From contig NC_087250.1 of assembly GCF_037042905.1 (NCBI RefSeq), positions 8,124,001 through 8,188,000 on the forward strand: a stretch of DNA of 64,000 nucleotides, in the 5' to 3' direction. The translations under genes were made by a program, and so were the position numbers. Source of the stretch: Lytechinus pictus. Lineage: Eukaryota. This document shows positions 1 to 42,196 of this stretch, piece after piece. The stretch's first letter is position 1, and every line of letters begins with the position of its first letter. The notes beneath the pieces are model-generated. The model ran no database searches. It saw nothing but the letters and a program-made list of their open reading frames with translations, and was not told the origin of the DNA.

Positions 1-357
1 GATAATTATTTCAAACAATATGCCTATTCATTTGTGAGCTTCAGACCTTTCATTTTTTCTTGGCATGCCCATAATTATATGCCCTATTTTCACAGAAGAA
101 ATATAAATGAAGGGAAGAAGCAAATTGTAAAAGTATGAGGATAATTAACATAAGAAATAAACACTATAATTAAAAGAAATACGATACATGCATACTTGAT
201 GAATTTGAGGGAGTGTTGGTGGGGGAATGTATCATTTTAACAGACTTCTTCTGGGAACAGAACATGTTCATTAACAAAGCTCGTAGCAAATACTAAAAGC
301 CGGCTTCATTGCGATTCAAATCTGACACCGAATAAATAAGTAAACACCAATACTTAC

Positions 358-6149: not shown

Positions 6150-6337
6150 TTATTCGTTCATGAGTGGTACTGATGCCTCGTCGTCTCGCTGGGCATTCTG
6201 GGAACGAATCACTGATGTCATCTTCCGGACGACAACCAGGACGATAACAAGGAGAACGATCATGATCGTTACCATGGCAACGATAGCCAGCATCCATGGG
6301 TTGAACGCAGAAACATGTGTTTCAGTTGGTTTATCGT
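6150..6337 (-). CDS. ZP gene exon 25: TM helix, short cytoplasmic tail and stop
   Basis: WMLAIVAMVTIMIVLLVIVLVVV followed by RK; TAA at 6150-6152. Confidence 0.9.
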
Positions 6338-9300
6338 CTGCAAGATAAAAACAAACATGGTACAATATGGTTAACAGGTAGGAAGAAAAAAAAACACACA
6401 TACACTTAATTCCAATATTCTTATCAATATACAAAGGATTCATGCACATCATTATGCGATCTGTCCTTACTCGATCTACCAGAACTTTTTGTGAGACCGA
6501 CCCCTGTGTAGAAACTGTAGAAAAATAGATGAATTAATTTGCGAGGCGCGCCGCTTGGAACCTTCCCAAAATGAATATATTCTGTCCCTGTATTCCTACA
6601 ATCTAGAAATGATGGATTTTTTTTACTACGTGTTTACTTATATCCATCGTTAGCTTGGCATGTTTTTCTGATTATTTCAAAACCTTCATCCAACTACTTA
6701 TCCCCACTGTCGTGCGATCCGTGACGAATGCCACAATTGGTTGTCCGTAACTGATCATGAGAGTTTTTGAACCATTCAATCCTTTTCTGCGATCAGTACG
6801 ATTGCCAAGAATGATCTAATACGATCTGATACGACCACTACGATCATAACCACGATTAAGATCACCGTTTTAGTTGTGGCGCGAATCGTGAAAGTAGGAA
6901 CTAGGCATAAGACATAGTACACACCAACGACATGATCGAAGAGATTAGTAAGGGTTACACGCACGAGGTACTTTCGGAACAGTTTTAATACGTCCGAGGC
7001 CTTTCGATAATAATAGTTACCAGAGTGAATGTAACCACTAGAAGTTAGGTTGGTTAAACAACCAATGCGTTTTGCAATTTAATTGCGTTAAACACAACAA
7101 TATATTAGTTTATAGTGGGTTTTGTTGTTGTATTAGCCTTTTGAAACATGTAATTTTACAATGCAAAATTTGTATTCATAATTGTTAATATATTCATTTT
7201 TATACGCATATTCATTATTGTAATTATGTTCATTTTTATACGCATATTCATTATTGTAATGTTCATTTTATACGCATATTCATTATTGTAAACATATTCA
7301 TTTCTATACGCAAATTCATTATTGTAAACATATTCATTTCTATACGCAAATTCATTATTGTCATACTCTCGCTCGGGAATCGATAGAGTTTAATGAAATA
7401 TTATCTTATCTTAGCTGAGGGCATTCACTATTTCAAGCTGGGTAAGTATGTGTAATCATGATTATTCTAATGCCAGGATAATTGTATGTTTGATAGGATA
7501 GTGTTGTGGGTCCTTGTTATATGATAAACCATCCTCATCTCAGAATAATGACGGGTCAATTGTACTAGTCATTAGTACCAGTCAGCAAATATTCCGTTTA
7601 ATGGCAAAAATAAATGCCTGATCACGTGATAGGTCTGAACCAATGAATTCGATAAGAGTCCATATTACCATTTTAAAACATAATAATAATAAAAAATTAA
7701 CTTAAAATAGGCCTTTAAAAGAATATTGGTAAAAACACTTACATTTTACGAAGATTTATATTTAATTTCTACAAGAAATATACGATGATTTGTATATCAT
7801 ATATTTCTTGAACTTTGTATCTTGTATTAATACGTCTTGTTTATTGAAGGAAACCTTCATTAACAAGCATTGCTTTCAGAAGGTTTTTATTTCATTTCAT
7901 TACGTTATATTATAAATCGCTTTACTTTGTAATTTTGTTGAAATTTTGAAATGACACAAAGTCGTTTTTTGTGTATAGAATGAAAAAGAGGAAAATATCC
8001 TACATCAACAATGCGCATACCTTTTATCATCCAGTCCATCTGTTCGTAGGATTCCGAGCTGCGTCTAAATCTGATCGGTCCACGGCTAATCCTCGTACGC
8101 GCAAGCGTGGATTTCGAGGCTGTGACGTCACGACGTTGGCGACCGTTCAGCCCACTTGGGCATGTGACGTCACATTCCGTAAGATTTCCGCTTGTTGCGT
8201 CACAGACAAGGAGGTCACAATGGATGTAAACCTAGAATACATAAAGAATAGCTATAAAGGTAAAGTCAGTGTTGAATTCATTATTTTAATAATGCTTCAT
8301 TTGAAGTCTGTTGATCATACTTTCATATCGCTATTCCCTATTGAAAAGGATGTTGGGCCACGCGGAGTGTTAACACAGTGTAATCACACAGTGTGCAATG
8401 GGAAGATGTGGGGCCCGTCTTAAGGCGACCGCACACCTTACGACTGGTCTGCGACCCGATTTAGGAACAAATCGCATTTTGCTCATTTTCTGAAGATGTG
8501 AATGGAACATATCATTTTATTTGAGGTTGAAATTAATTGAAATAATAATATTATAACAATTTTGAAAGATTGCAAGCCCTTATTTTGGAGTAAAGTCCAA
8601 ATTAGGTTCAAATCGTAGCCAATCGTAAGACTGCTATGACGTCATTACGACTATAGATATTAAATTCGCTTTTATTCTAAGAAGGATGATAGCATAGTCA
8701 CAAATTTGATCATAGGTATTCGTACGATGATTTCGAACATTACACAGTTAAAGATATGCCAAGTCTCAATATTAGCATCAAATTCTATTACATTTTATTC
8801 TGAAATCGGGTCGCAGACCAGTCGTAAGGAGTGCAGTGGCCTTTACAAAGAGTTGCAATTATTGATCCGATCAACCACAACTATGGAAAGCCAACAACGT
8901 GAACACCGAAAATCCTTGTATGTTCAAAATGTTTTCTAGACATAATGTATTGTCATACTGTACATTAATCATTGTCTTGGCAATTCGATGTGCTTCATCT
9001 TTGTTTACAAAGTACATTGTGCAAATTTCCTGTAGGAACAATATGACAATGATGGATTTCCATATACTAGAGTTGAAATTAATTGGATCAAATCTTCGGA
9101 AGATGAGAACGTGATTTACGACTCTTAAAATGCTCAAATTTCACGAGAATCAAGAATCAAAACTTTCATTTTTCTAGTCTACGCTGCTTACACACATTGT
9201 GGACACTCTCACTGTCAACAATCTTGTGCACAGTTCTACAGTGTAAATGTTCACAATGTGTTCACACAGTAGACTGCGTTAAGACGTGATTCACACTGTT

Positions 9301-12300
9301 AATATGCTGCAAATATAACAGTGTGAATATACTTTCGCACTGTGGAAACCTCTATGGTGGAAGGTTTCACAGTGTGTTCACATAGTGGGCTATGTTAAGA
9401 CGTGGTTCATACTGTTAATATGCTGCAAATGTACTAGTATACAGTGTGCATATACTTTCACACTGTGGATACCTCTATAGTGTGAGGTTTTACAGTGCAT
9501 TCACATAGTGGGCTATGTTAAGACGTGGTTCATACTGTTAATATGCTGGAAATGTATACAGTGTGCATATACTTTCACACTGTGGATACCTCTATATTGT
9601 AATGTTTCGCAGTGTGTTTACATAGTGGGCTATGTTAAGACGTGATTCACACTGTTAATATGCTGCAAATTTAATAATGTGAAGATGATTTCACACTCTG
9701 AAGGCATCTATAGTGTGAGTGTTCACAGTGTGTTCACATTGTGGACTATATAAAGATATGATTCAGTGTTACAATGCTCAAAATTAACAGCTTCACACTG
9801 TAAACACATTGACCGTATAAGCATTTATAGTGTGTTCAGTGATTCGGTAATAAACTGCTCAAGTTTGATAGTGTAAAGATAATTTCAAACCGTGGACACC
9901 TATAGAAGGTGAGCGTTTACAGTGTGATCCCATACTGACTATGTGAAAATGCGACTTCAACTGTTAAAATAAATTCTCATTATTGTTATTATGGCAATGG
10001 TTTCACACTATGAAACACGGCGGGACACTGTGTTCTAGGGAAATTCGTAACACTACCGAGAGAGGGCGTTAAATGTTTTATAAAAAGATATAAATTGCAG
10101 TATGGATTCAGTTAATGGACAATGATATACCCATCACTCCCTACTTGAAAGAACACAGTGTCCCACAGAGTGTGCCACAGTGTGTTCACACTGTGAAATA
10201 CAATATTAAATACCCTCACACTGTTAAATTCAATTCAATTCATCAGTGTGAATCACATACTCACACAGTCGACCATGTGAACATGCTGTGAACAGTCACA
10301 TTGTCCAGTTGACCACATTGTGAAAATATCTTCACTGTTGAATATCAGGGTTTTTACAGTGTGACACTGTATCTTATCCAGCAGGGCTATGCTTTTGTAC
10401 GATCCGAAACATAAATCAACAGCCTATGAATTGTTAACATATAATTTAACATAATAGAAACCTCAGAATGGCATCAGTAGGAGGAGGATCTTCTCTTCCC
10501 GTCCTTTTACTTTCTTGTTTCCCTATATACTTACTCTGTTTCCTAATCCTACGAACCGGAAGGTCTTCATCGTGACCCCAACGAAGTCAAGCTCATCCGG
10601 TTGGATTACTGTTCCTTCATCGACAGAACAACTAATAGACAAGGAAGGAGAAAAGAGAGAAAATGTTAAAATATGGGGAGGAGAAAGCAAATTTTAGATA
10701 TTTAAAGAGGAAGACATGGAGAGTTAGGAGAGAGAAAAAAAAAATTTAGTATACCTATACATTATCTATAATTATTATTTCATTCAACATAACCAAACAT
10801 GTAAACAATATGTACAAACAGTAAGATAAGGAGAGTCACGTGGATGCCGGGAAATGAAAAATATTAACTAAATAATATTTGCTCAGGCGACAATTGCTCC
10901 GCTGTAAATCCCCCACATTAATGGAATGACCAACTTCAACCCTGGATTTAACACTAAACCCTATCCTAAACATAATCCTAAACCTAACATAAAACCCTAT
11001 TGCAATCCTAACCCTCTTAGGCGAGCAATTGTCGCCGAAGCAAAAGTCATGTCCCCTCTGTTCCAAGCCATGTGACTTTTTAGAAAGAACATACACGTAA
11101 TAGTAAATAGTAAGATACAACTATAGTTGAAGATCATTGGAATCATACATAGTTTAACATTAAGAGAGAATCTTATCAAATCTAGGGTAGATATGAAAAC
11201 ATTCTACCTGAGCCATACATCCTATCCAAATGTGAAAAGTTGCGAGCCAATCATTATTGATAATGGTTGATTTAGATAGAAATAATGCAAGCTAAGTTGT
11301 GTAATGATTGTACCCTTTATTCATCTTATATTCAGAGTAATATATATCGAATAAAAAATATGAATTATTCATTATCAATAAAGAGGAATTTCAAGTAAAA
11401 TCTTGTGTGTGGTTGGGGCGTCACGAGACCTCTTGACCATCTGGTAATCTTCCATGCCGAGAATTTCATCCGACTTACCCATCTTCGATAAAAAGGAATT
11501 GGTCGTCATTGAACGAACTTGAGGGCGTGGCCACACAGCGGGTGATTGACAGGTCCAAGGTCCCTTCCTGCGATGGAACGGAAGCACCGAAGTAGAGATC
11601 ATCATTGAGATCCATATCGACTGGATAGTCCTCTTCAAGGTACTTCTCCTCAAATCCTTCATCTCTGTAACAAGTCAATTCAAGAAAAAATAAATTCTTA
11701 TCAATATTAAGGAGATTTGTTGACTGATATATAATTCAAAGTCTTCTGTATCAGGTTGACCATATTTTCGTCATGTTTTTCCAAACACTAACGCTAACCC
11801 TAGATGTAACCCTTTTTAATCCGGGTTGTCAAAACTGGCTTGCGCCAGTGGAATAATTGACACTATAGAAGCAGCAGAAATGAATTGCTCTTTTCATTAT
11901 GTATAATATTCTCTTAAAGGTAGATTTAGATTTAGATTTATTCATTTTCCGTTCACAAAGCACAACAAAATCAAAGTAACAATACATAGTCAAATTTAAA
12001 GTACAATATCAATCGGAATAATGCATAATAACTAGAAGGTAACGATGAATGGTGGTACAAGAACGCCGATCTTACTCAAGAATGGAAAATATACATATTT
12101 TACAATGTCGATGTAGGCCTACTTTTAATTCACCCTTAAACACCCTTTAAAAATCAAATCCAAGAAATAATACATCAGTATCGATTTATCCTGACAGAAA
12201 AGAGGAATTGACATTAGCAACATAAAAAGGGAATTATTAACAAAAGACAGAGGACATCTACTTTTAATTTTTTTCCGAGGGACGAGGTTATAATTCCGAG

Positions 12301-14024
12301 GGACGAGGTTAACACTAACGCTAACCCTAATTCTACATCCTGCAGAATTTCATGAAATATTACACCCGTTTATTTATTATCATTATTATTATTATTATTA
12401 TTTTATTCGGCACTTAATCAAAAACGAGACAGCATGTACAATGCAAGATTGAGAAATAGTACAAAAATACAAATAGTTTTTAGACCCTTTCTCATCCAAC
12501 CAGGTAGCCTGGTTTCTCTGTTGATAACTGGCGGACTGTTAGCATACACTGTGATTTGTCAGAAACCTTGCAGATACACTCACAAATTGTTGAACGACTT
12601 CAACCCGACAGATTTCAAACTTAGAAATATATTGGTACGAATTTCTTAAGATCATAGACCCACCTGTATATATCCAAAGCGAAAGCGTACTGGCCGCTGG
12701 ACTCTTCGGTGACGTTGAGACGATAGTTCTTGAGCTCGTACGAGCGTAGTCCCACGCGCCCGGTTCGGTTGTAGGTGCAGGTGAAGGGGATGTACACATC
12801 AGATACGCGGGTGACAACCCCATACTCTCTCTCAACCACAGTATTGCTGTAATACTCGAATGTGGCATCTTCCTATCATTTGATGACGGTGAAGAAAAAA
12901 AAAGGTGCAAATTCAACATTGTTTCGCTTATAACTGCGTCAAAGTGATTCGTTATTACTTTGTAAATAAGTGAAAGTAATTGTCATTATTTTCTCACTTG
13001 CTAAAGATGCAGTTTTGCGGAATGTAAAACAATAAATCAAATCAAAATCAAATCAAACGTATCATTTTCAAAGTGTTTGAAATGGTGAAGATTGGACCAG
13101 ATAAAGACACATGGGCTGGATGATTTCTAATGGATTGGGTTTTCACCGGTGAAATAATGTGAACATATCAAGAAGGAATAAGACAATTCACAGTGTGGAA
13201 GAGTATTAAAACAGAACAAATGAGTTTGAGTAAAACATTGTGATCATAGGCTTACTTTGGTCATGTCACATTCGTAAAAAAGGAAACCTGACCAACAGTG
13301 AAAATACATCAACAAAGTTAGAACAATTGTGGATATATATGGTTTGTTATATTTGTTTTCAATACATATACATGTAGGCCTGATGAAGGCCCTACTGGCC
13401 GAAAGCTAGCATTAAATGAGATACCTTGAAAGCTAATCACAGTAATAACGTGTATTCAAAGTTTAATGAAGCGGTCACAGTGAATAAACAGTGTACGGAG
13501 AATTGCCATTTGAACATTAAGTGTAGTTAAAATTCACATTAAAGCAGTAAAATGAATTTCAAATAGTCAAAGATCAAAGCACTATAAGAACAATAATGAT
13601 AAACGCAATAAAATAATAGTGTTAACCCAAAGAATATCAAATATTTTTAAATTTTCAATGAGTTGGCACTGTGTAAAAGACGCACCAAACTTAATTTTAA
13701 TTTTTAATAAAAAATAACGTTAATGAGTGTAAAAGCACAGGGAGTGCAGCAATAAATTACAACAACCTTTAGTGTAATACTTACACGTCTTTCGTTATTA
13801 CATGAAGTTAGATTTGTGGTGATAACGATGGCCATTCCATCCTCTGATATCACTCCCTGGCAGCTGCCATCGTTCATCAGCTGAAGGTCGGTTCCAAGGG
13901 ATGCGCCGCCGAGCCGCTCCAGGGGGACTCGCACTGACATGGTGGTGGGTGAACACTGGAGGATGATAGCAGCGACTGCAAAGGGAGTGTGAGTACAATA
14001 AGGAATTAGCAAGCAATGCTTTCT

Positions 14025-14062
<38 letters not shown>

Positions 14063-17000
14063 TAACGTTTGAACTAATCGTAACGGGCGTAAATCCGTGA
14101 CGTCATGCTATTCAAGTGGGGGGAGGTGGAACAATAGATTATCCCCGTGAAAAATAGGTGTGACGCAAGGATTTACGTCAGTGCTAATCATACATATTTT
14201 TTTTTGTTAAAATAAAACAAAAATATCACATCATTTCGTTGTTATCACTGTTATTAATTTTCATTATTATCATGTACAGTAGGCCTATTGTCTTCATTAT
14301 TATCATAAGTTTGGAAGATTCTTTGCTGAAAACACTCTGTCACACAGTGCAAAACACAATCTGAATCCTCTTTTAGAACAATTTATTCAGTGCATGTGAA
14401 TAAGGCCACCGTCTTACAATGAATTGTGATTGATCCAATTAACAACAACTATGGAAAGCCAGCAACGCCAACATCTAAAGTGCGTGTTTTCTTCAAAATA
14501 CTTTCTAGATATGATGTATACTCAAACATTCATTGTAGTCTTGAGTATAGGGTGTGTTCCTCTTTGTATACAGAGTAGACCGTGCAAATTTCCTGTAGGA
14601 ACAAATTATGACAATGATGGATTTCCATATCAAGGTAAATCAGATCAATCCCAACTCTTTGTAAGACGGGCCTCTGATCTTCACGTGGTCCATTGTGTGA
14701 ACACACTGCCAAAAAAAAAATCACTGTGAACACACTGTAAACACACTGTAAATATATTATGAAAATACTGTGAACACACTGTGAACGTACGGTGAATACA
14801 CTGTAAACACAACATACTGTAAATATTGTGAAAACACTTTTAACACACTGTAAACAAACAATGAATACATTGTAAGCACTATTATTACATACTGTGAACA
14901 CGGTGAACACACTGTAGACACACTTTGAACACTCTGAGAACACACAGTAAACGCACTGTGGAAACACTGTGAACATACTATGGACACAATGCAAACATAC
15001 TGTAAACACACTGTGAACACACCGTAAAAACGCTGTAAACTCACTGTGAACACACTGTAAACACACACAATGTGAACTAACTGTAAACACTCTATGAACA
15101 CACTGTAAACACACAGTGAACTAACTGTAAACACACTGTGAACTGTAAACACACTGTGGACACACTGTGGACTGTAAACACACTATGTACACACTGTAAA
15201 CACTATGTGAACACACTGTAAACACACTTTTAACTAACTGTAAACACACTGTGAACACACTATAAACACACTATGAACACACTGTAAACACACTGTGAAC
15301 TAACTGTAAACTCGCCGTAAACACTCTGTGAACGCACTGTTGAACACTGTTTACACACGGTAAGCACTCTTTGAAGACACAGTACAATGAATACATTGTA
15401 AAACAATTATTACATACAGTACTGTGAACACACTGTAGACACACTTTGAACACTCTGAGAACACAGTAAACGCACTGTGGAAACACTGTTAACACACTAT
15501 GGACACAATGCAAACCTACTGTAAACACACTGTGAACACACCGTAAAAACGCTGTAAGCACACTGTAAACTCACTGTAAACACACTGTAAACACACTGTA
15601 AACACACTGTGAACTAACTGTAAACACTCTATGAACACACTGTAAACACACATTGAACTATCTGTAAACACACTGTGAACTGTAAACACACTGTAGACAC
15701 TCCGTGAACATTCTGTGAACACACTGTAAACACACGGTAAACACTCTGTGAACACACTGTAAAAACGCTGTAAACACACTGTAAACTCAATGTGAACACA
15801 CTGTAAACACACTTTGAACTAACTGTAAACACACTGTGAACACACTATAAGCACACTGTGAACTAACTGTAAACTCGCTGTGAACGCGCTGTGAACACAC
15901 TGTAAACACTGAACACACTGTGAACACACTGTGAGCACACTTTAAACACACGGTGCTACACTATGATCCTTTCAGTAGGGTTTCCAAACCTGTTTTGACT
16001 GAAACGGGTCCAACTGGTGAGAGCTCATAGTCCTGACTGAGGAAGGCCCCCACAGTGACGTTGTACATGCGGTCTGGCAACAAGTCCTCGATGGTGGCGC
16101 TATTTTGATCACCTCCGTATACCAGCTCTACATAAATGAATCAGAAAAAAACTATGATGAATAAGGACAACTCCACAAGATTTTATACAATTTTAGGTGA
16201 GGTAAATGGGTACCGGCAGGAAGTCATTCCTCAAAAGGCTGTGAGCACCGGAGTCGGTATACTAGCTAAGCCGGGGTAATATATATCCGCCTTGAGTACC
16301 CAACAAGGTGGAAACGTGCGCTATACAAATCCTATATTATTTGATTATCAATCAGTTTGACATTTTATACGTCCGAACGTCATTTTTCTTCATCTTACTT
16401 CAATTCAGGTAATGCTCGAGCAATGATATTTTGTTAGCTCTAATATAAAAATAATTAAGAAATCATTATACGACGCTCCCAGAATTGGGACAGACGGGCA
16501 TATCTAAATGAATTGCCGATTTCGTAATGTTTCAATATTTCCTCATGGTTCTCTGTAGGAAATACACATACATGTACATGACCAAACCAGTCACAATATC
16601 TTCTGTCTACTAAAAATTGTATTTTTTTCAAGACAATTATTTTGTATTTGCTTGAATGTGGGCCCTAACAGTTGACTTTTTAAGGCGTGTGTCGTCTTAG
16701 CTTATTTATTTATTTATATCTCAAAGAAAATCCAGGTACTTTATTTGTTCACTTGACCGCTATTAAAGAGAAAGAGGAAAATACGACGGCGTAAGCTACC
16801 GTGTAAATATAATGAACAGTGATTGAAGATAGACTTTGGTCTTTAAGTTGATAACAGCGTTATCATCTTAAAACGGCATTAGCAATTATACCAGATAATT
16901 GCTTTGTGATGGTACCAACATCTTTGTACCACGTCAGGGTAATATATATATATTAATTCAATTTTATATTAAAAAATGTGCTCTAAGTTGACACGACCTT

Positions 17001-32000: not shown

Positions 32001-32365
32001 TTTATTAACAGTTTTTAATTTTCCTTAGATATATATACTCAACGTTGTATACAGTTAAGTCCAAATGAGCCATGTTAACGTTTAATATTAAGCATAATAT
32101 TGTTATTATTAGAATTATTCATTAATTGTTTAAATCGGGACCACGTGATCCACTTAACATGGATGATTACTTACCAGACATCGACGATACACGTACGTTC
32201 ACATTTGTCAGGATCGATGTGTGAACAAGCCATTGGCAATACACGTGTGTCATGGTAGAGGAGAAATTCCCGATGTGAATGGATCCTACCCCATTTGAGG
32301 TTGTCAGATCCAGAGTTCCACCGCAACCGTAATCTGGGTTTTAAAGATTTAAGTGTGGTGTAATA

Positions 32366-32397
<32 letters not shown>

Positions 32398-35300
32398 TAA
32401 TATCAAGCTTATTCATCATAATTATCAATAATTATAATGATAATATTATAAACATAATGGCATATGTACTACTGGTTAGTGTGTAGACCAAACGGCAATT
32501 AGACCGCATTGGTAATAAACCAATCTGGGGACCGTTTCATGAAAGTTGTCAGCACTGACAAGTTGTCTTTCTCATACAGTTACCATAGTAACAGTCAGTG
32601 CCTTTCAGCCAATCAAAACCAAGGATTTCACTGAAATTGTCAGCACTGACAATTTAGTCAGTGCTGACAACTTTCATGAAACGCCCACCGGGTTTGCTCT
32701 AAGTGAGTATTAGTAGAAAAGACAGAAGTCCTCAGCAATTATTTTTCTATTTAAAAATTTGTGGCTTTTGTAATAGCAAATTTGGACAGATTTTGTGGAA
32801 CACTCTGATTTCGTCTGCGTTCAATTAGGTTATTTGACAATTTTATTCAACATTCATTTCAAAAGCATTGTTACTGTTATGCCATTGGTGTTGTTTACGT
32901 TATACTGGAGGGGGCAACTCGAAAAGCTTGTAGCGAATTCATATTGCATTCTAGTTCTTGTTTTTCCTTTGTCATGATAACCCGCATTCACCTTGAACAT
33001 GATCCACGGTTAACGTAAGCGAGCGGCTTCTGTTTGATGACCCGGAAGTGAAGACCAAGGTCACGCCGTGACCTTCCTGGAGGAAGATGTATTCATCACT
33101 AATTGAGCCCGTGAGCTGGCGGCGATAATTGGACCAGTCGGTGGGATCAAGACCGGTAAAAACATGCAGAGAATCAATTCTAAGAATGAAAGAGAGAGAG
33201 AAAGACAAAAAACATATGATTTGCTTGTTAAAATTTTGAAATCTTTTAAAATCTTGACTACTTCTTAATATACATGTACTTCCGAGACACGCATATCACC
33301 ATAATGCATCGGCGTACCTTTATAGGTAATCGCGTCAAGAGTTGAGTCAAGTGTCAATGTCATTGGAGTATAGGCCTATTTGAAACACCCTCGTCTACTT
33401 AGATTTTTTTTCATTAAGTTTCATTCATTCATTCTATTCACAAATGATATACCTGTTTTTTTAGTATACTTCCTTGGACCCAGAAATCTTGCTTAATAAA
33501 CCTCATGTATTGACGTCGTCGTGCCGCCATCTTAGAGGCTGAAGCCATTGCCTCGCAGGTGTCACGGGCCTAATTCATTTCCCATAGACTCGTGTGTTAA
33601 AGTGGCACTTCATAAAAAAATCATAAAAAGATAAGGAGGAAATTCGATGGTTGAATGTTTACTACTACCAATGGAGAAACACTATACCCTTATATCCCTT
33701 ATTCACACTCTTCATTTTTTACCATTCGTTTCTCCACCGTTTTCACTTCTTGAATAATCATACACCCTTACAGCACAGCTCTTGCCCCCGCCTTTAATTC
33801 TTACCCCTCTTCTGTATCCATTTCCTCGACAAAGACTTGAATCCTTGATGCAGCCTCGTTGTTGGTTATTCTGTAGACACAGACGAGATCAGATGTGTCA
33901 GCGGGAAGGCTGAAGAAAAGAGCTGTAAACAAAAAAAGGAAAGAAATTGGTGTTTAATAGATCAGAAAGTTAACCATAGATTGATGAACAGATGCTATAT
34001 GGATGGATAGATAGATGTATAAATGGATTTATTTATTTATTTATTGATAGATACATTTGTTGATTGCTTGTTTGATGGATTGGTTGATTGTTTGATTTAT
34101 ACATTGATTGCTTGGTTGGTTGATTGATTAGTTGATAGAAAGAATGATTGATTGGTTAGTCTATTAATGATTTATTTAATGACTGAAGATTGATTGATTG
34201 ATTGATTATCAGGTTGGAGGTCCAGAAACTTTTTTTATTTTTCTGATTTCGTGTGAAAAAAACCCAGCGGTCTCATAAACGGTTCTTGTGAGTAATCTGT
34301 ATAAAACTTTTTATTTATTTGAACTTGCTATGTTGATGAAGTAAAAAAAATTTAAGATTGTTTTTGTGAAGATACTAATTTGAAAAACTATAGTAGTAAT
34401 GTGCTTTCGACAAATGTTTTAAAGAGCTCTTTATACATATACAAGAGTCAAAGAAAAATAAAATCACACGAAAATAATGGCCAGTACTTATCACAAACAT
34501 TTCGTGAAAATCAGGATGGTCAATAGATAAATCTTTCAGATTCTTTGAACGATTATTTCGATATGCACGTAGGACCTACCAAAGTTGATAGTGCTTGAAT
34601 AAATTAAAATAAGATTAGTGTTTTATTCAAGGCTTTATCTGTGTTATCTACATCCGGGATACAAGGTCGTTCAATGCCTATTTTGAATGTTGAAATCCTA
34701 CGGAAAAGCAAAAGTTGGTGAACTTTTGCCTATATCATATAGGAACAACACATAGGCCTAAGCGAATACAATATGCATCTATGCTCGTGGCTCACAGTTA
34801 AAATTCAATCAATTTTTCCGATTTCACTTATGTGTGCATTTGTAAATCCATAACACAGTTTTGTTATCCGCATATTTCCACATGAGAAATATACATGTAA
34901 TTGCCCTTGTATCATTAATGTATTTCCTTCATAATCCGTGTTTTATAACAGTAAGCATGTCGAAGATTTTATGGCTGTATCATGATTGGATGAATGTGTA
35001 TCATACACTGCAAACAAAAAGTGTTAAAACTACAAGTTTTCATAAGTCACGAATTTTACATCAGTGTAAAACTTAAGGTGCAAATTCAACACCTATTGTT
35101 AACACAATCTGTTTCTCAATTTCAATGGTGTATTTTCAACACCTGAGGGTGGGGTCCCCTGAGAACAGACTAGTGTTGTTTTTAGCACCGTAGTTTTACA
35201 GTGTACAGACCTTATGTAAATGACGTCATATTTCCAAAGCGCCCTCCTTCAGAGGATATTCGGATATGCGTAAAGGGGTTGTCATTATATGCGCAAGCTG

Positions 35301-38300
35301 GATGCAAATCACCAACACATGCAATTCATTGGCTAGTCTGCAGGCACAGACCCTTGGTTTTCAAATTTACATAGTGTATGATGCATAATCTGAAGCAGTG
35401 AGACTATTCACTATATACTGTGGCTACCTATATACTGACACAGACATAGAGTTTGGAGTCTTACCGCTAGATAGGGTATCGGTTGAAGTGTGAAATGTGA
35501 TCCCTGGCAATGGCTTCAGTCTCTAAAATGGAGGTCCGATGACGTAATTGCATGAGGTTTAATAAATCAGGAAGCAACTAAGGCATTATTTCTTACCAGA
35601 TTGTTCCAGTGTGAAGTTGCCTCCGCAGGATGAAGATTCGGGTTTTTCTTCCATCTGTGTGACTGGAGAGAAATAAAAGATATGTTCATTCAAAATCCTA
35701 AGGTTGGAATCGTGGCCTTACGCATATATATATTTTAATTTTTGCGGGAGGGGGGGGGGTACTTTTGGCATTTTTTTTGAAAATTTTCATTAAGAATTTT
35801 TAAAGTCTTCAAAATTTATGGGGAGGGGGGCAACTGTCCCTCCGCTGCGTAGGCCTACAGCTATGGTTGGAAAGAAATCGAGTCACGATTCCATTGTCAC
35901 ATTATTTTGAAGAACCGACTCCATATATACCTATACCAAATCTATTACATCGTTTCCAATGACATACCATCTGTCGATTTGGAGTGGTTTCGTTGATGTG
36001 ATTGTAAGCATCGAACTGCATTCTTAAAAATATTGGGTAAAAGTGCTCCATGAGGATAATTATGTATCCAACCAACATTGGGCATTTCTTTTGGGCATTT
36101 TTATTTATCCAGTCAGACGAAAATTTTGCCCATTCTAAAGTAATTGCTGCTTATTTTTTAAGCCTTACTGGACAATATGCTTCCCGCATTGGGTAGAATA
36201 CTGCCCCAAATTGGTTGGACACACAACTACCCTCGGGGTGGTAAAAAAATTACCCAATATTGTTTACAGTGTGCAGATATTTTTCAACATAGTATGCAAA
36301 CAAAAGAAAACTATAACCTCATCCTTTTATTCCATATTCTCCTTTTTCTGATCTTCTTTTACCATCATTTTTCTCCTCCAACTTTCTTAGTATTCTTATC
36401 CTTTCTATAATTTCTAATCTTCTTCTTCAACTCTTCTTAAATCTCCTCGTTCTTCTCCCTTTTTATTCTTAGTGTCACTCTTTTGCCTTCTTCTTGTCCC
36501 TTTTTTGTCTCTTTTTTCGCCTTCTTCTTCCTCTCCTCTATCTTTTCTTTTTTCTTCCTGTCCCTTTAAGTTCTCATTCTTATTTTTCAACAATGCCTTC
36601 TATTTCTTCATCTCCATATTCTAGACCGATATATCTTACTACGTTATTCTTATTGTAGTATTTATAATTCTGCTTCTTATTCCCCTTCTAACTTTGATTG
36701 TTTCTATTTATTTTCACTACGGGCCTTTTCACACGTGAATCTTGAATCATCATTGTAATGTGGTTTTCCATTCTAATCGTGACTGTTATTAGCGTTCGTG
36801 ATTCTAATCGTGTTCTAGTTTGTTTTCACACGTGCTAAATATTCGTCATTAGCCTTATTTTTCACTGGAATCATCAATCAAATTGCGGATTTTTTTACCG
36901 TGTGAAAGGGCGGTAAGTGTATTTCTTTTTGTTCTTGCTATACCCTATACCCGTTTAATTCTATCACTTACCACTGCTTGTTTCAACAATTACATGAAAT
37001 CCTGATGCCCGATCCGAGTAATCAGACCGAAATTCCGCAATGACGTAATCCATGTCTGCTACCATGATTGGTCCCATGCTCGTAGTGGGCGTGCCCATTT
37101 GCGATAGAACTTCTACCGGGTCACCGGTCGCTAAGAATGCGGTCAACTTCATCCAATCATGTTCCTCCATTTCCAGGTCGACCACGGTGATCGTCAATGG
37201 ACCCGATGACGTAATGTTCCAAATATAGTGAGTGTTGTCATCGTAAAACATGGGGTAGTCGTTGCTGTAAAGATGAAGTGGCTTGCCCGGCTTAGCAGCC
37301 ACCTCGTAAAAAGTTTCTTTGACAGGAACTGCGTCTGAAAAAGGATTATGATTAGAAGGAATATGACGAACATATACCATACTGTTTGCTCATTTCCATT
37401 TATGCTCAATATTATACTGTTTTTTTGTTTTGTTTTACGAAGTAAGAATGCTCGCCTGTACAATTTGTACTTCATTTATATTACTTTATATATTACTTTG
37501 AATTGTGTTTTTAATGGAAATGGAATAAAGAATTAAATTGAATTGTTAAGACTTTTTGCATTTCATGCTGTAGTTCATACTTTCTCGAATATAAGCCCTC
37601 AAAATGTGAAATAAGAATAGTAAGTTCTTCTCAAAGGATAATCGAATCCTATTAGAAAATGACGAAGACAAAAATGTTACTGTGACACTAGTCGCGAAAA
37701 GAACAGAATGAAAAAAAAATCAAATAATCGAGAGAGAAAACGAAAATGTGATATAGTATAGGATAGAGATAAAGTATATGAGAGGGTCTAGATGATTGCG
37801 AGGGTGGGTACGCTTAGCTATGGTAATTTTGGCGTGTCTGCTAGTATGCGTGTGTGTGGGATAGGTTTGTGTGTGTGGGTGGATGCGTGATGCATTATCT
37901 GTTTGGTGGTATAGTGTGTGATGGTGTTTGTTTATGCGTTGTGTGCGGGGGAGCGCGCGTGTGAGGTTGAGGGTGTGGGTGAGGGAGTGGGTGTGCGTTG
38001 GGATTTACTTCTTGGTGGGGTTGTGAGGAGTGCGTGCATGCGTATAAAAGGGTGTTTGTGAAGGTAAGGGTATAACATGGTATGTACAATCATATGTTTT
38101 GTATGCAAAACCTGGGCCCCGTCTTACAAAGAGTTGCAATTGATCCAATCAATCGTAACTCTATGGAAATCCATCAGTGTCATAATTTTTTCATCAGGAA
38201 TTTGCATTTGTAAACAAAGGAGAACACACAAAGTTGTCTAGAAATCAATAAAATATTGGATATACATTCGTATCTAGATTTTTTTTAACAAACGTGCATT

Positions 38301-41300
38301 TTATATGTTGCCTTTGCTGGCTTTCCAAAGAGTTGCGATTGATCGGATCAATCGCTACTATTTGTAAGACGGGGCCCTGGAAAGGATGGATCAAGCAGAA
38401 CAAATAATATAGAAACACAAGGAATAAATAGCCCATAAAAATCTAAAGAACTGTAAGCAGAATGACTCATTACGATAATTATCTACAAATTTGAAAGGAA
38501 AAATACCATACCTCTGGGATATTCGTCGTAAACCATTTGGAAACCGGTTCCGTTGGTGTTGACCCCATCAGATACAAATGTGACATGGAATACGGTGCTT
38601 AGGAAAGTCTTGGGAATTGCACTGCCGGTCACCCACTAAAGGGAAGGGGGAAAGAAATATACAGAGGGCCAATGCGAGAGAGAGAGGGGGGGAGGGGTAA
38701 AGGGTATGAGAGGGGAGAGGTAGATGGAGAGAGAAAGGGATGAGGAGATTGAGTGTGTGGATTTATGGATAAAAGGAGCCACGATAAAAACATGGGATGA
38801 AAATCCCATGTTTATCTTGAATTTTGTTACTTAGTAAATGACACTCTTTGAAATCTTAAAAAAAATCATCATGAAAATCATCGACATTGAGCGAAGCATG
38901 GTCTTGGAATTAACTCCAACCCTAAAAAAAGTATTTCTAAATTAACAAAGTTCTCCTGAAATCTTTGGATATTATAGGGGAATGATTGCAAATTAATAGG
39001 TCAGGCTAAACCACGTGGATGAAAAATACTTTAGAAATAGTTCATGACTATCAGTTTTTATAGAAACACGTGTTCATTGTGGTAAATAAATCACTGCTAG
39101 TATCGGCAGTTGAGTCTGCTTAGAACCAAGTTTGAGCACAAACCGTTTTCTGAGAATCATTCATTCATTCGAATAAATATCTATTTTCTTCCATTTTCAC
39201 CAAATACAATTTTTGATAGAAATCATTGTCGTAAAATAGCAAAAAGATTGACATCCTCAAAAAAAAATATATGGGCACATCTGGTCTTGATAAGGAGTTA
39301 GGCCTATTCTAGTACTAAGGTGTCACGGGGGGTGTTTACTATTTTTCTTGTATTCAACTGCGACAAGAATTAGTTCTCGAAAAAAAATTGACACCGCAGT
39401 AACATAAAAACGTACAAGGTCCGTAACTCATTACCAGCTGTTTAAACTTAAACCATGCAACTTTGGTGTCGAAATGACATCAATTAACTTAGGCCTAGTG
39501 TCACATAATGTTACTAACTTTGGTGTCAAATGAACACCAGGGTTTGCAAAATAAAGGCATACATCATCATGATGGTATGGTTTCCTTGCCGGTTGGTGCC
39601 TTAAGTATCCGTGGTGTTAATCCTAACACCGTTCTTTATGCAAAAAAAAAAATGATAAAACATAAAGATTTACCGTGACAGCTCCGTACTCATCCTCAAC
39701 CATAACGCCATCCCCGTCGTCTCTGAAATCAACGCTTTGAAACTGTAATCGAGTTAGACGTCCATTGCCGGCCGTCAGCGTCATCGAACATTCAAGGCTG
39801 TTTGCGTATGGGCTCGGGAATCCCGGAGATTCTAGCGTTCCCGGATATGTCATATTATTCCCGCAGATATCGGTGGCTGTAGAGAAATATCATGAAGAGA
39901 GAAAAGAAAATGAAAATGAGAGGAACCGCATTCTGTATCTTTTTATTTTTATTAGGTTAAATCATTGCTATAGTCAGCGGGGGAGGAGGTGGGTGTTTCA
40001 GGCAATTGCCCCTCTCCAGAAATTTTGAAAACTTTCAAGATAAAAAAAAATCACAATTATGCACGGAATCCTTAACCTTCAATGACTCATCGCTCTCTCG
40101 CTTTTGAGTTTCTTTGAATATTTCCATGCGCCGCCCCCCCCCCCCCGAGGAAAATTCTGCGTATACAGAAATGGGCTTGATGTTTCTTTTATTCAGTTCT
40201 TCCTTACAGCGGAGGTCGTATCCGAGTGTTTGTTCCACCTTCTAATTGAGGCATGCAAGGTTCGATCTAATACAAGCTATTTTACAATTTTAATCGAGAG
40301 GTTAAAAACATGCATTCATATCATGTTGCTTGTGAAATACATGTTGCGGCAAAGGACATTTATAAATTCTCTTTTGTTTTATCTTCCATTAAATTATAGG
40401 TATTAATTAGTACCGCTTAAATCTTTAACAAATATCATATTAAAGCACACTCTTAACGTTCACGAATAGCCGTAGATACAAAGGTGGTTGTATGACTAAG
40501 ACCATGCAATGCTTGACCTAAAATCACTGATCATACAGTAAAATGAGGGTCAAATTCACCCAAAAAGGAACTTTGGGTTTCATTATGAAGAATGGTTTGA
40601 AGTTGAGTGGCTTCATAATTAGATCCACTGCGCAAATACGATTACGTTTAATAGTACAACCTTTGTCTTTGAGTCAATATCGGTCTGATAATTGATCAAA
40701 GACTAACTAGAGTTTAGAAGCAAATTTTAAGGTTTTTAAACGACCCTTGTCCCATGTTAATATGTCATGTAAAAGATTCCAGTTTCAAGACCTATTTCTC
40801 TATACCCATTTCAATACATATGTATATAAATTACATCACTCAAAAAGAAGAGCTTCATGTAAAAAAGACAAATTAGATTAAAGAATCAGATCCCACCAGA
40901 AAGCCAAGTTAGTTTTGATGAAAGCCTAAAATAGCTTTTGTTTTACCCGTCATAGCGCACGGTGTGCATTACCGTACTTTACTGAATGACTTTAAAAAGC
41001 GGGGGAATATCTTCTTGCTACTCATGTTGCATCATGAATTATAAAAAAGGGGCACTTAAAACCTAAAATGGTTGCCTTTGTTCTCCCCCAAAGAGTAATA
41101 ACAATAAATAATGAAATGCGTGAATAAATAAATGAAAATAAATAAATAAATATATGAATAAATAAATAAATAAATAGAGAAAGAAACATATATAAATGAT
41201 AATAAAACAAATAAAACGAATAAGATAATCACAATAATATTGATAGCAATATATCAAATGGAAAATAATAAAAAAACACGAAAATCAGCATTCTTGGCAC

Positions 41301-42196
41301 ATGTTAATTGCGAATCCCCCACCCCCCTATGTACAGCACGCCCCAAGGCTTACAAAACCCAGTCAGATTTTCACGCATTATGTCACATGACAAACTTAGC
41401 AATGCATGAGACAGAGATTACATAAGTCATGTTAGTGGCTGAATGAAGGAAAATCACCAAGACATCGGGGGGCATTTCAAGGAAAAATAGTCAGTTATTT
41501 TTCACTTGTATGATCTGAGCCATTCAGATGGAACCAATCCGAATAGTTAGTGAAAAATTATTCATTTTTGGTTTTATTAAATGTCCAAGATCAAGTTCCA
41601 GGTTTTATTTTCATTTCATTTCCATCAATAACATTACAAACATATGCAAATCAGACATAAGTCATAATAATACAAATGAAATATGGTTACAATGATTACA
41701 AATCAAGTATAATATTTCCCAGTTCCACGGGAACCTGTCTCATTACAGAAATTAAACAAAAGTTACAATTATTCTAGTATAAATGAAAGAAATTAAGTTA
41801 TTTCAAATCATATTGGTCTAATCTCGAGATTTATGTAATTATTTGTGACCTTCAAATAGCACTGTTTGAAACTAGTTCATCACGAATACGGTATACCGTG
41901 TAATTGAGAGGCTGAGACTAAAGTGAATATAAAGGAAGCAATATCAAGTTCTGATATTTTAATATTTCAAACATAACGTGTTCAAGTAAGCAATAGACAA
42001 GCAAAAACATAAAACCCAACGAATCAAACAACATAGCAATAGGAAAATCGAGTATAATGCAAATGATGAAGCTCATTTTGAAACTTGCAAAATTCATTTG
42101 AAATATCGGGGGGTAAGAAACAAAATATTCAAACTTACCATGCGCGGTACACGCCAGCAGGAGAATAGCCAGTGCAGCTTTTATAACCCCTCCCAT
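6150..42196 (-). CDS. 25-exon gene (~1436 aa) for a mosaic ZP-domain membrane protein: SP-CUBx5-CTL-FN3-CTL-FN3-ZP-furin site-TM
   Basis: Hand-spliced exons (low-high coordinates): 42139-42196, 39674-39876, 38512-38635, 36972-37334, 35597-35662, 33805-33922, 32992-33179, 32175-32333, 31594-31782, 30645-30871, 28539-28659, 27286-27495, 26768-26971, 23966-24081, 21556-21736, 20926-21132, 20177-20374, 18967-19125, 15990-16127, 13785-13975, 12664-12872, 11479-11664, 10535-10631, 8021-8231, 6150-6337. All introns are GT-AG and phases match throughout. The total is 4311 nt with no internal stop. Domains were called by motif recognition only. Confidence 0.88.
7180..7362. repeat. ~34-bp tandem repeat, about 5 copies
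   Basis: TATACGCA(T/A)ATTCATTATTGT recurs. Confidence 0.85.
8021..8231 (-). CDS. ZP gene exon 24: end of ZP-C, furin site RQRR and EHP-like motif
   Basis: VYIHCDLLVC...C...CPSGLNGRQRRDV...ISRGPIRF; not found by the ORF track. Confidence 0.9.
8423..8842. mobile_element. PIF/Harbinger-like MITE with a TTA TSD, nested in another MITE (~8409-9105)
   Basis: ~40-bp TIRs AGGC(G/C)AC.GCAC.CCTTACGACTGGTCTGCGACCCGATT; TTA at 8420-8422 and 8843-8845. The host sequence is uninterrupted at ~38113-38378 and ~14405-14672. Confidence 0.8.
9180..10365. repeat. CACACTGT-rich repetitive element with ~120-bp internal tandem units
   Basis: CATAGTGGGCTATGTTAAGACGTG..TTCA.ACTGTTAATATGCTG recurs 4-5 times; right end TTTTTACAGTG. 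Confidence 0.7.
10535..10631 (-). CDS. ZP gene exon 23 (ZP-C)
   Basis: GCSVDEGTVIQ...MKTFRFVG, the typical ZP GC..D and FxF motifs. Confidence 0.88.
11479..11664 (-). CDS. ZP gene exon 22 (ZP-C)
   Basis: YPVDMDLNDDLYF...RCVATPS...FIEDG. Confidence 0.92.
12664..12872 (-). CDS. ZP gene exon 21 (end of ZP-N and linker)
   Basis: YYSNTV...IPFTCTY...GQYAFALDIY. Confidence 0.9.
13785..13975 (-). CDS. ZP gene exon 20 (start of ZP-N)
   Basis: LQCSPTTMSVRV...LQLMNDGSC...TNLTSC. Confidence 0.9.
14700..15980. repeat. ~1.3-kb satellite of ~11-bp units ACACACTGT(A/G)A with an internal ~250-bp duplication
   Basis: Read directly; source of the VFTVC-type ORFs. Confidence 0.9.
15990..16127 (-). CDS. ZP gene exon 19 (C-half of FN3-2)
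   Basis: SATIEDLLPDRMYNVTVGA, the FN3 L-P-x3-Y motif. Confidence 0.88.
18235..18819. mobile_element. Kolobok-like palindromic MITE with a TTAA TSD, nested in a ~250-bp MITE
   Basis: AGGAGAATGAAAC termini, TTAA at 18231-34 and 18820-23, long internal inverted arms. An empty host copy lies at ~36017-36272. Confidence 0.85.
18967..19125 (-). CDS. ZP gene exon 18 (N-half of FN3-2)
   Basis: PSNLAVVATQTSMMVTWTP...VIGYRVRY. Confidence 0.9.
20177..20374 (-). CDS. ZP gene exon 17 (C-half of CTL-2)
   Basis: GYSDQSVEGDWRWVDC...W...EDCAAL...C...YICE. Confidence 0.92.
20926..21132 (-). CDS. ZP gene exon 16 (N-half of CTL-2)
   Basis: CPTNYELGPNGHCYRF...C...LVIVNDQAELDFL...WWVG. Confidence 0.92.
21556..21736 (-). 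CDS. ZP gene exon 15 (C-half of FN3-1)
   Basis: VIISGLSPATTYLFEL. Confidence 0.9.
21800..23900. repeat. Degenerate CA-rich low-complexity region, interrupted at ~22115-22530 by a hairpin-rich element
   Basis: Recurring TATCAAATCTACAGACTC and AATCCTCCCACACC motifs; inverted pair TATATCCTGCATCAA / TTGATGCAGGATATA. Confidence 0.7.
23966..24081 (-). CDS. ZP gene exon 14 (N-half of FN3-1)
   Basis: YPSNFQVLEIDDNDVSLSF...CDVSGYK. Confidence 0.88.
24429..26134 (+). mobile_element. Non-autonomous Helentron/Helitron-like (HINE-type) element, ~1.7 kb
   Basis: 5' ATTAGGTGGTCTGTC with a local hairpin and a TTTA microsatellite; 3' GACAGACCACCTAAT subTIR, hairpin TAATTCGTC/GACGAATTA, then CTAGT. Confidence 0.7.
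26768..26971 (-). CDS. ZP gene exon 13 (C-half of CTL-1)
   Basis: GYYDAAINGEWVWVDC...NWQVGAPND...HCAYM...YNDDDC...YVCE. Confidence 0.92.
27286..27495 (-). CDS. ZP gene exon 12 (N-half of CTL-1)
   Basis: ECPTGYSYNPSNDTCYKFV...WWNARYDC...WWVG. Confidence 0.92.
27603..27670 (+). mobile_element. tRNA-like SINE head fragment
   Basis: ACTCAGTGGT (A box) and GGTTCGATCC (B box); no intact acceptor stem. Confidence 0.5.
27771..28505. mobile_element. Non-autonomous TIR element with CACAC/CACTA-like ends and TA flanks
   Basis: CACACTAAGAAATACCGGT at the left end; ACCGGAATTCCTTAGTGTG at the right end. Confidence 0.65.
28539..28659 (-). CDS. ZP gene exon 11 (C-half of CUB5)
   Basis: ITGSELPNDVVS...LNIRFTSDSSGTGSGFSFTY. 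Confidence 0.92.
28882..29868 (-). mobile_element. HINE/Helentron-like element carrying 4-5 tandem units of ~160-190 bp
   Basis: subTIRs GTCTCACCTGCAT / ATGCAGGTGAGAC, (GCC/GTC)n microsatellite, internal repeats containing TGACCTTTGACCT. Confidence 0.8.
30645..30871 (-). CDS. ZP gene exon 10 (N-half of CUB5)
   Basis: GVVSSP...YPNDADCQWII...VRIHFTEFDLE...DKL. Confidence 0.93.
31370..31565. repeat. Degenerate (CAT)n microsatellite
   Basis: Read directly. Confidence 0.85.
31594..31782 (-). CDS. ZP gene exon 9 (C-half of CUB4)
   Basis: YDWLEIGYG...LMTG...LWIVFS. Confidence 0.88.
32175..32333 (-). CDS. ZP gene exon 8 (N-half of CUB4)
   Basis: CGGTLDL...GSI...YCQWLV. Confidence 0.88.
32992..33179 (-). 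CDS. ZP gene exon 7 (C-part of CUB3)
   Basis: DSLHVFTG...LTGS...VTLVFTS. Confidence 0.88.
33805..33922 (-). CDS. ZP gene exon 6 (middle of CUB3)
   Basis: LVCVYRI...RIQVFVEEMDTEEG; phase 1 to 2 fits the neighbouring exons. Confidence 0.82.
35597..35662 (-). CDS. ZP gene exon 5 (linker and start of CUB3)
   Basis: SSCGGNFT; 66 nt, phase 1-1. Confidence 0.8.
36972..37334 (-). CDS. ZP gene exon 4 (CUB2, lacking the usual Cys residues)
   Basis: LYSNDYPMFYDDN...IWNI...DLEME..DWM...FRSDYS...GFH. Confidence 0.92.
38512..38635 (-). CDS. ZP gene exon 3 (C-half of CUB1)
   Basis: VTGSAIP...FHVTFVSDG...GTGFQMVY. Confidence 0.9.
39674..39876 (-). CDS. ZP gene exon 2 (N-half of CUB1)
   Basis: ICGNNMTYPGTLESPGFPSPYANSLEC...LQF. 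Confidence 0.92.
42139..42196 (-). CDS. ZP gene exon 1 (signal peptide)
   Basis: MGGVIKAALAILLLACTAH, ACAATGG start context, phase-1 GTAAGT donor matching exon 2. Confidence 0.88.

What the first reader, a model, noticed from the sequence alone, without database searches (positions are those of the whole stretch)
6150..42196. Unusual mosaic ZP protein: CUBx5-(C-type lectin-FN3)x2-ZP-furin-TM
Seen: an intact ~1436-aa reading frame over 25 phase-compatible exons, several of them missed by the ORF track. Established: ZP modules polymerise into extracellular filaments after furin cleavage releases the external hydrophobic patch. CUB+ZP proteins (CUZD1, DMBT1) and CUB-rich echinoderm egg-coat proteins are known. 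I do not recognise this combination with two lectin-FN3 modules. Inference: a shed, filament-forming recognition scaffold, possibly for the egg vitelline layer and gamete recognition, apical matrix, or mucosal defence.
Basis: partly seen in the sequence, partly recalled or inferred. Interest (0 to 1): 0.72.

Follow-up and report, generated by a model that had tools for sequence, protein, structure and literature searches.

The report
Sea-urchin receptor fused to filament module
This is a real but unstudied sea-urchin gene in which the outer part of an old cell-surface receptor appears to have been joined to a module that builds extracellular fibres, probably making a sticky surface mesh; such domain swaps are common in animals, but this one can be traced.

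Summary
Confirmed. The minus strand carries 25 GT-AG exons giving 1436 aa, identical to an uncharacterised RefSeq protein of Lytechinus pictus (XP_063956891.1). All 8 introns laid were spliced as predicted in two runs. The order is signal peptide, CUB x5, (C-type-lectin-like + FN3) x2, ZP-N/ZP-C, furin site, EHP, TM. It is kept in L. variegatus, S. purpuratus and Diadema. The ZP module keeps every uromodulin/GP2 polymerisation motif I checked.

New here is the origin. The whole region before the ZP aligns in one piece (31% over 1063 columns) to an internal CUBx5-CTL-FN3-CTL-FN3 block of a crinoid receptor with no ZP; hemichordate 'cubilin-like' proteins repeat a CUBx5-CTL-FN3 unit. The ZP's nearest relatives are sushi/CTL-ZP proteins. 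So the gene is probably a receptor ectodomain grafted onto a ZP polymer, seen so far only in echinoids.

'Lectin' is overstated: CTL2 lacks the sugar-site motifs and CTL1 has a degenerate one. Nothing supports an egg-coat role; tissue is unknown. Most likely it is a shed apical-matrix filament with Ca-dependent CUB binding arms. New variant of a known kind.

The parts
42139..42196 (-). Exon 1: start codon and signal peptide (aa 1-19)
   Evidence: hydrophobic N-terminus, in-frame stop upstream
39674..39876 (-). Exon 2: CUB1, first part
   Evidence: Pfam CUB E 1.4e-5
38512..38635 (-). Exon 3: CUB1, second part
   Evidence: aligns to crinoid CUB
36972..37334 (-). Exon 4: CUB2 (no cysteines; acidic E185/D188/D233 invariant)
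   Evidence: Pfam CUB
35597..35662 (-). Exon 5: CUB3, start
33805..33922 (-). Exon 6: CUB3, middle
32992..33179 (-). Exon 7: CUB3, end
32175..32333 (-). Exon 8: CUB4, first part
31594..31782 (-). Exon 9: CUB4, second part
30645..30871 (-). Exon 10: CUB5, first part (E542, D546)
   Evidence: Pfam CUB E 8e-8
28539..28659 (-). Exon 11: CUB5, second part (D590)
   Evidence: Pfam CUB; joint to exon 12 in RNA contigs
27286..27495 (-). Exon 12: C-type-lectin-like domain 1, first half
   Evidence: Pfam Lectin_C; joints
26768..26971 (-). Exon 13: CTL1 second half, degenerate APN...YND site; locally very variable
23966..24081 (-). Exon 14: FN3a, first half
21556..21736 (-). Exon 15: FN3a, second half
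   Evidence: Pfam fn3 weak; joints
20926..21132 (-). Exon 16: CTL2, first half
20177..20374 (-). Exon 17: CTL2 second half, no canonical Ca/sugar motifs
18967..19125 (-). Exon 18: FN3b, first half
   Evidence: Pfam fn3 E 5.8e-7; joints
15990..16127 (-). Exon 19: FN3b, second half; the inferred fusion point to ZP follows it (phase-1 intron)
13785..13975 (-). Exon 20: ZP-N, first part
   Evidence: Pfam ZP-N E 1.1e-5
12664..12872 (-). Exon 21: ZP-N end (Y1148, R1162, Y1174), interdomain linker, IHP
   Evidence: alignment to uromodulin and GP2
11479..11664 (-). Exon 22: ZP-C
   Evidence: Pfam ZP-C E 3.9e-9
10535..10631 (-). Exon 23: ZP-C with FXF motif (FRF 1296-98)
8021..8231 (-). Exon 24: ZP-C end, cleavage site RQRR 1335-38, EHP 1352-59, second basic site RFRR 1358-61
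6150..6337 (-). Exon 25: stalk, TM helix, 25-aa tail with invariant acidic...PLM motif, stop

Best explanation
A single-pass precursor of a uromodulin/GP2-type ZP filament protein, built by grafting one CUBx5-CTL-FN3-CTL-FN3 block of an older echinoderm/hemichordate surface receptor onto a ZP-cleavage site-EHP-TM end. Shown: gene, domains, conserved motifs, splicing. Inferred: the precursor reaches the apical surface of a somatic epithelium; a furin-type cut at RQRR frees the EHP; ZP modules polymerise head to tail through the linker; each subunit then projects a long, acidic (pI 4.1), glycosylated arm whose Ca-type CUB domains (CUB2, CUB5 best) bind protein ligands, particles or microbes with high avidity. 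The CTL domains act as spacers or protein-binding domains rather than classical sugar binders. A cut at the second site (RFRR, just after the EHP) alone would shed a non-polymerising soluble form.
For: Colinear match to GP2 (E 7e-17) and uromodulin (E 3.4e-14) across ZP-N, linker and ZP-C: 10 of 10 ZP cysteines, both ZP-N tyrosines, the fg-loop arginine, the linker, IHP and FXF. These are the elements PMC7737619 names for polymerisation (passages). Cleavage site and EHP are kept in Diadema, S. purpuratus and both ZP paralogues. ZP is the best-kept part: 99% to L. variegatus, 87-89% to S. purpuratus, against 66-73% for CUB2/3. Origin: residues 32-1058 align in one HSP to crinoid XP_071940891.1 1105-2128, E 1e-147. 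Five relatives with a visible TM end have no ZP. The ZP's nearest non-orthologues are sushi/CTL-ZP proteins at 50-52% whose CTLs fall outside the family clade. 11 of 11 domain-boundary introns are phase 1, against 5 of 13 others. Expression differs strongly between runs.
Against: No filament, cleavage, ligand or tissue was shown. The four runs are unlabelled as to tissue. The AlphaFold model of the ZP part failed (pLDDT 34). The invariant acidic/PLM tail looks like a sorting signal (motif recalled), which also fits a retained receptor. Not every ZP protein polymerises (betaglycan, endoglin; recalled). The direction of the fusion is inferred from distribution, without a rooted test, and the searches were word-based and length-limited.
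Confidence: 0.58

Rival explanations
1. An egg vitelline-layer or egg-coat filament protein that takes part in sperm recognition.
For: ZP modules build egg coats in vertebrates (PMC7737619 passages); acidic CUB repeats occur in the sea-urchin egg receptor EBR1 (PMC13672419 passages). CUB2/3 diverge faster than the ZP.
Against: No expression evidence for ovary or egg. The ZP is of the uromodulin/GP2 type, scoring above ZP2 in the PDB search. 95-96% identity between congeners and 81% to S. purpuratus is not extreme divergence. Architecture and linkers are kept from Diadema to Lytechinus.
Confidence: 0.15
2. A membrane-retained uptake or co-receptor, working like cubilin or betaglycan, in which the ZP only dimerises and the ectodomain is shed.
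For: The ectodomain descends from non-ZP type I receptors annotated cubilin-like; best PDB hit is cubilin CUB5-8; the tail has an invariant acidic...PLM motif.
Against: A cleavage site placed before the EHP and the full set of polymerisation motifs are conserved over the echinoids sampled; the tail is only 25 aa.
Confidence: 0.14
3. A true sugar-binding defence lectin mesh: CTL1 binds microbial glycans and is under diversifying selection.
For: Exon 13 shows 9 differences in 202 nt against 6 in 1095 nt for six other exons (Fisher p 1e-4); 5 of the 8 listed are non-synonymous, two beside the APN and YND motifs. Crinoid homologues keep QPD motifs.
Against: CTL1 lacks the first acid of EPN, and the Diadema copy has lost the loop cysteine and the ND; CTL2 has no motif. 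The variation comes from contigs of two runs, was noticed after the fact, and could be a paralogue or an old haplotype.
Confidence: 0.11
4. Two neighbouring genes or a pseudogene merged by annotation.
Confidence: 0.02

Closest known systems
Uromodulin / GP2 (ZP-module homopolymers)
   Same: Colinear ZP-N, linker and ZP-C with 10 cysteines, IHP, FXF, cleavage site, EHP and membrane anchor.
   Different: TM helix rather than GPI; the arm is CUB/CTL/FN3 rather than EGF/D8C; low sequence identity.
CUZD1 (UO-44) and DMBT1/hensin (CUB + ZP proteins; architectures recalled)
   Same: CUB domains N-terminal to a ZP module; CUZD1 also has a TM.
   Different: Five CUBs; two CTL-FN3 units between CUB and ZP; no SRCR domain. 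The 'DMBT1-like' label on the Diadema orthologue is not borne out.
Echinoderm/hemichordate CUB-CTL-FN3 type I proteins (Antedon XP_071940891.1, Anneissia XP_033117509.1, Acanthaster LOC110985794, L. pictus LOC129271967, hemichordate 'cubilin-like')
   Same: Same CTL-FN3 unit; in Antedon the same CUBx5-CTL-FN3-CTL-FN3 order; CUBx5-CTL-FN3 repeats in hemichordates.
   Different: Longer, repeated arrays; no ZP; they end in a ~130-aa module (weakly SEA-like, 0.79, a lead only) and a TM. All are uncharacterised records.
Sushi/CTL-ZP proteins (S. purpuratus LOC581009 and P0008)
   Same: Nearest ZP-cleavage site-EHP-TM end, 50-52%.
   Different: N-terminal sushi repeats and a different CTL type; no CUB or FN3.
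Sea-urchin EBR1
   Same: Acidic CUB repeats in an extracellular echinoid protein (PMC13672419 passages).
   Different: ADAMTS-like with TSP1-CUB repeats as described there; none of those domains is in this protein.

Membership tests
ZP-module proteins, uromodulin/GP2 type | ZP-N with 4 cysteines and signature tyrosines | tested here: met
   C1084/1115/1135/1172, Y1148, Y1174 align to uromodulin; Pfam ZP-N
ZP-module proteins, uromodulin/GP2 type | ZP-C with 6 cysteines, IHP and FXF motif | tested here: met
   C1253/1273/1309/1314/1324/1328, IHP 1202-1209, FRF 1296-98
ZP-module proteins, uromodulin/GP2 type | Interdomain linker of uromodulin length and pattern | tested here: met
   Aligns with one 1-residue gap; 28/28 identical in S. 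purpuratus. Its structure was not confirmed.
ZP-module proteins, uromodulin/GP2 type | Basic cleavage site, then EHP, then membrane anchor | tested here: met
   RQRR 1335-38, EHP aligned to GP2's, TM 1389-1411
ZP-module proteins, uromodulin/GP2 type | Forms filaments after cleavage | not testable with these tools
   needs expression and EM
DMBT1/hensin | SRCR repeats (recalled; also PMC5435793 listing) | tested here: not met
   No SRCR in Pfam scans of the protein or its orthologues
CUZD1 | Two CUBs directly followed by ZP and TM (recalled) | tested here: not met
   Five CUBs and two CTL-FN3 units; no CUZD1 among ZP relatives found
Cubilin | EGF repeats and 27 CUBs, no TM (recalled) | tested here: not met
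   No EGF, five CUBs, TM present
Ca-dependent sugar-binding C-type lectins | EPN or QPD plus WND motifs (recalled): CTL2 | tested here: not met
   SPG and LVSL at those places
Ca-dependent sugar-binding C-type lectins | EPN or QPD plus WND motifs (recalled): CTL1 | tested here: inconclusive
   APN and YND in camarodonts; APS and YGN with a lost cysteine in Diadema
Ca-binding CUB domains | Glu-Asp-Asp triad (recalled) | tested here: met
   Invariant in CUB2 and CUB5 in 5 of 5 sequences; incomplete or shifted in CUB1, 3 and 4
Egg-coat proteins | Made in oocytes and found in the vitelline layer | not testable with these tools
   runs carry no tissue label

The most novel reading that the evidence does not exclude
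A traceable receptor-to-fibre conversion: in the echinoid line one repeat block of an ancient cubilin-like surface receptor was fused to a ZP polymer, its second CTL-FN3 unit was later replaced or converted from a paralogous receptor, and the product is a multivalent recognition mesh (mucosal defence or egg surface) whose CTL1 loop is kept variable by balancing selection.
Probability: 0.2. Interest if true: 0.7.

Novelty: new variant of a known kind. Interest (0 to 1): 0.43.

Why it matters
ZP proteins of echinoderms are little described: a 2026 review of ZP evolution has no occurrence of 'echinoderm' or 'sea urchin'. This gene gives a clean, datable case of exon shuffling that would turn a surface receptor into a fibre-borne binder, in a lab model species, and it exposes an apparently undescribed CUB-CTL-FN3 receptor family across echinoderms and hemichordates. 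It stays moderate because shuffling of domains onto ZP modules is known to recur in many animal groups (PMC9290575 passages), the gene is already annotated in RefSeq, and no function or tissue is shown.

Tried and rejected
No whole genome is held for this window, so a second L. pictus copy, synteny and dN/dS could not be checked. AlphaFold2 of the ZP part with 7 sequences gave pLDDT 34, unusable, and no fold search was run. The two-copy ZP complex job gave no verdict. The run search listed no holder on record as RNA; the laid contigs of X1 and X15 are nonetheless spliced. The careful CTL tree did not finish; quick trees were used. 'DMBT1-like' and 'cubilin-like' labels were rejected as family assignments. 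Weak Pfam hits on single exons (TSP_1 on exon 24, viral and DUF families) were treated as chance. A simple internal duplication as the source of the two CTL-FN3 units was rejected by an AU test (p 0.001), but I named the group after seeing the first tree. Literature: no paper holds any of six locus or accession ids; searches listed nothing on this architecture (listings only); passages of PMC11520437, PMC7037938 and PMC2909932 (and the latter's supplements, where 2 of 5 'CUB' rows were shown) did not mention it. The supplement of PMC7037938 could not be read and may bear on tube-foot expression; subscription papers and bioRxiv supplements were not searched. Earlier scan findings: none.
Full report
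1. The observation. Scanning the minus strand for open AG...GT exons gave 25 exons between 42196 and 6150. Joined, they make 4311 nt, 1436 aa plus TAA, and 24 of 24 introns are GT-AG. Exons are 37-57% GC against about 33-43% for the surrounding 2-kb bins. The product is identical at 1436 of 1436 residues to RefSeq XP_063956891.1, 'uncharacterized protein LOC129263433' of Lytechinus pictus. So the gene is real and already annotated, but unnamed.

2. Transcript evidence. I laid four runs on 15960-28900, which holds 8 of the 24 introns. Contigs of X1 and X15 join all 8 at the predicted places with CT..AC ends, including CUB5-to-CTL1 and CTL2-to-FN3b. The X1 contig continues 1081 nt past exon 19; the model needs 1082 nt to the stop. 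The 4214-nt X15 contig has 1229 nt before exon 12 and 1572 nt after exon 19. Contig word depth was 304 in X1 and 22 in X15, while two raw RNA runs (about 6% read) showed no joints and 0-0.8 depth in the bins of exons 12, 14, 15 and 16. The measures differ, but expression is clearly uneven between samples. Tissues are unknown.

3. Anatomy. Signal peptide; CUB1-5 (about 22-605); CTL1 606-743; FN3a 744-842; CTL2 843-977; FN3b 978-1077; ZP-N, linker, ZP-C 1084-1328; RQRR 1335-38; EHP 1352-59; RFRR 1358-61; TM about 1389-1411; 25-aa tail; pI 4.1; 18 N-glycosylation sequons. Pfam passes three CUB stretches, two Lectin_C, two fn3, ZP-N and ZP-C. CUB3-4 are confirmed by ESM look-alikes and by alignment to crinoid CUBs. 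All 11 introns at domain boundaries are phase 1, against 5 of the 13 inside domains, the usual mark of shuffled modules.

4. The ZP module. It aligns end to end with GP2 (8xc5, E 7e-17) and uromodulin (6tql, E 3.4e-14). Kept are 10 of 10 cysteines, both ZP-N tyrosines, the fg-loop arginine, the linker, the IHP, the FXF motif and the EHP. PMC7737619 (passages) names these as the parts that drive head-to-tail polymerisation after cleavage releases the EHP, and reports that uromodulin ending after the EHP is secreted without polymerising. By analogy, a cut at RFRR alone would shed a soluble form; this is inference. Folding the ZP part failed (pLDDT 34), so the evidence is sequence only.

5. Binding arms. 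By recalled motifs, CUB2 and CUB5 keep the Glu-Asp-Asp calcium triad in 5 of 5 aligned sequences; CUB1, 3 and 4 are incomplete or shifted. CTL2 has neither sugar-site motif. CTL1 has APN and YND, and in Diadema has lost the loop cysteine. The matching crinoid domains keep QPD motifs. So classical lectin activity was probably ancestral and has decayed. One result points the other way: exon 13 (CTL1 loops) differs from the window at 9 of 202 nt in X15, against 6 of 1095 nt in six other listed exons (p 1e-4); X1 carries both forms; 5 of the 8 listed changes alter the protein, and 4 of these 5 give the L. variegatus residue. This may be balancing selection, an old haplotype or an unseen paralogue. 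I noticed it after the fact.

6. Relatives. The full architecture occurs in L. variegatus (two records, 95-96%), S. purpuratus (LOC754003, 81%), Diadema setosum (57%) and D. antillarum. Conservation is highest in the ZP and lowest in CUB2-3. A search of 1.84 billion representatives with exon 16 gave 39 hits; I Pfam-scanned 16 of them, three more had been scanned, and the rest, mostly short fragments, only against my own domain profiles. They reveal a family of CUB/CTL/FN3 proteins without ZP in a sea star, two crinoids, three hemichordates and sea urchins themselves. Five of these have a visible TM end and no ZP (P0003, P0005, P0014, P0015, P0023); P0006 and P0031 look cut short and prove nothing.

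7. Origin. Residues 32-1058 align in one piece to residues 1105-2128 of the crinoid Antedon protein XP_071940891.1 (31% of 1063 columns, E 1e-147), domain for domain: five CUBs, CTL, FN3, CTL, FN3. Hemichordate 'cubilin-like' proteins repeat a CUBx5-CTL-FN3 unit. The ZP region's only non-orthologous hits, among 2028 candidates of 789-2513 aa, are two sushi/CTL-ZP proteins at 50-52%; one is from S. purpuratus, and the other's organism was not shown. Their CTLs lie outside the family clade (SH-aLRT 96, quick tree of 53 domains). Unit 1 groups with the matching Antedon unit (80-89), while unit 2 nests among repeats of the echinoid non-ZP paralogue (98 and 94); an AU test rejects the two units as one clade (p 0.001, 31 units; group named after the first tree). 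The simplest story is a phase-1 fusion of the receptor block to a ZP end before Diadema and camarodonts split, with unit 2 exchanged with a paralogue in the echinoid line. The direction is inferred from distribution. 'Echinoid only' is provisional, because the searches were word-based, length-limited and sparse in taxa.

8. How it most likely works. A membrane precursor is cut at RQRR and polymerises like uromodulin into filaments on an apical epithelial surface. Each subunit displays a long acidic arm that binds protein ligands, particles or microbes through calcium-type CUBs (0.58). Rivals: egg coat (0.15), retained receptor (0.14), true lectin trap (0.11), annotation merge (0.02). Only the anatomy is shown; cleavage, polymer, ligand and tissue are inferred.

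9. What is known. It meets the sequence tests for a uromodulin/GP2-type ZP protein and fails those for DMBT1, CUZD1 and cubilin. No paper in the held library names the loci, and eight topic searches listed none on this architecture (listings only). I saw passages of PMC7737619, PMC9290575, PMC13361971, PMC13672419, PMC11520437 and PMC7037938, and a term search of PMC2909932 and its supplements. PMC9290575 states that shuffling of EGF and ZP domains happened many times in several taxa, which lowers the surprise.

10. Verdict. Real gene, correct architecture, unreported as far as I could search, with a traceable chimeric origin. New variant of a known kind; interest 0.43.

Noticed in passing
window 59262-63000, minus strand: PR/SET-domain exons (61772-62029, 62651-62974) and a long C2H2 zinc-finger exon with 11 fingers (59262-60764): a PRDM9/PRDM-like gene.
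   Followed up: partly
window 49259-52828: Nested near-perfect inverted repeats (688 nt at 99%, 359 nt at 100%, 331 nt at 98%, 279 nt at 100%): a foldback-like element or an assembly artefact.
   Followed up: no
window 45429-45699 and 54441-54725: The same 15-bp minisatellite array in opposite orientations about 8.8 kb apart, flanking the inverted repeats.
   Followed up: no
window 319-804, minus strand: A 162-aa proline- and histidine-rich frame with PPPY-like motifs, probably an exon of the next gene; no Pfam hit.
   Followed up: partly
window 26768-26971 (exon 13): Excess, partly non-synonymous variation in the CTL1 loop exon; both forms present in run X1.
   Followed up: partly
proteins P0003, P0005, P0014, P0015, P0023, P0031, P0039: An apparently undescribed echinoderm/hemichordate family of giant CUB/CTL/FN3 surface proteins, several ending in a weakly SEA-like module and a TM.
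   Followed up: partly
proteins P0012/P0013, P0060/P0061, P0063/P0064: L. variegatus, S. purpuratus and D. antillarum each have two records at 97-99% identity: uncollapsed haplotypes or recent duplicates.
   Followed up: partly
window 16195-16243, 18060-18830, 27100-27140: Short intronic stretches with very high read depth and loose ends: dispersed repeats transcribed elsewhere.
   Followed up: no
window 14722-15955: A 1.2-kb degenerate 11-bp tandem array in the intron between FN3b and ZP-N, the inferred fusion intron.
   Followed up: no
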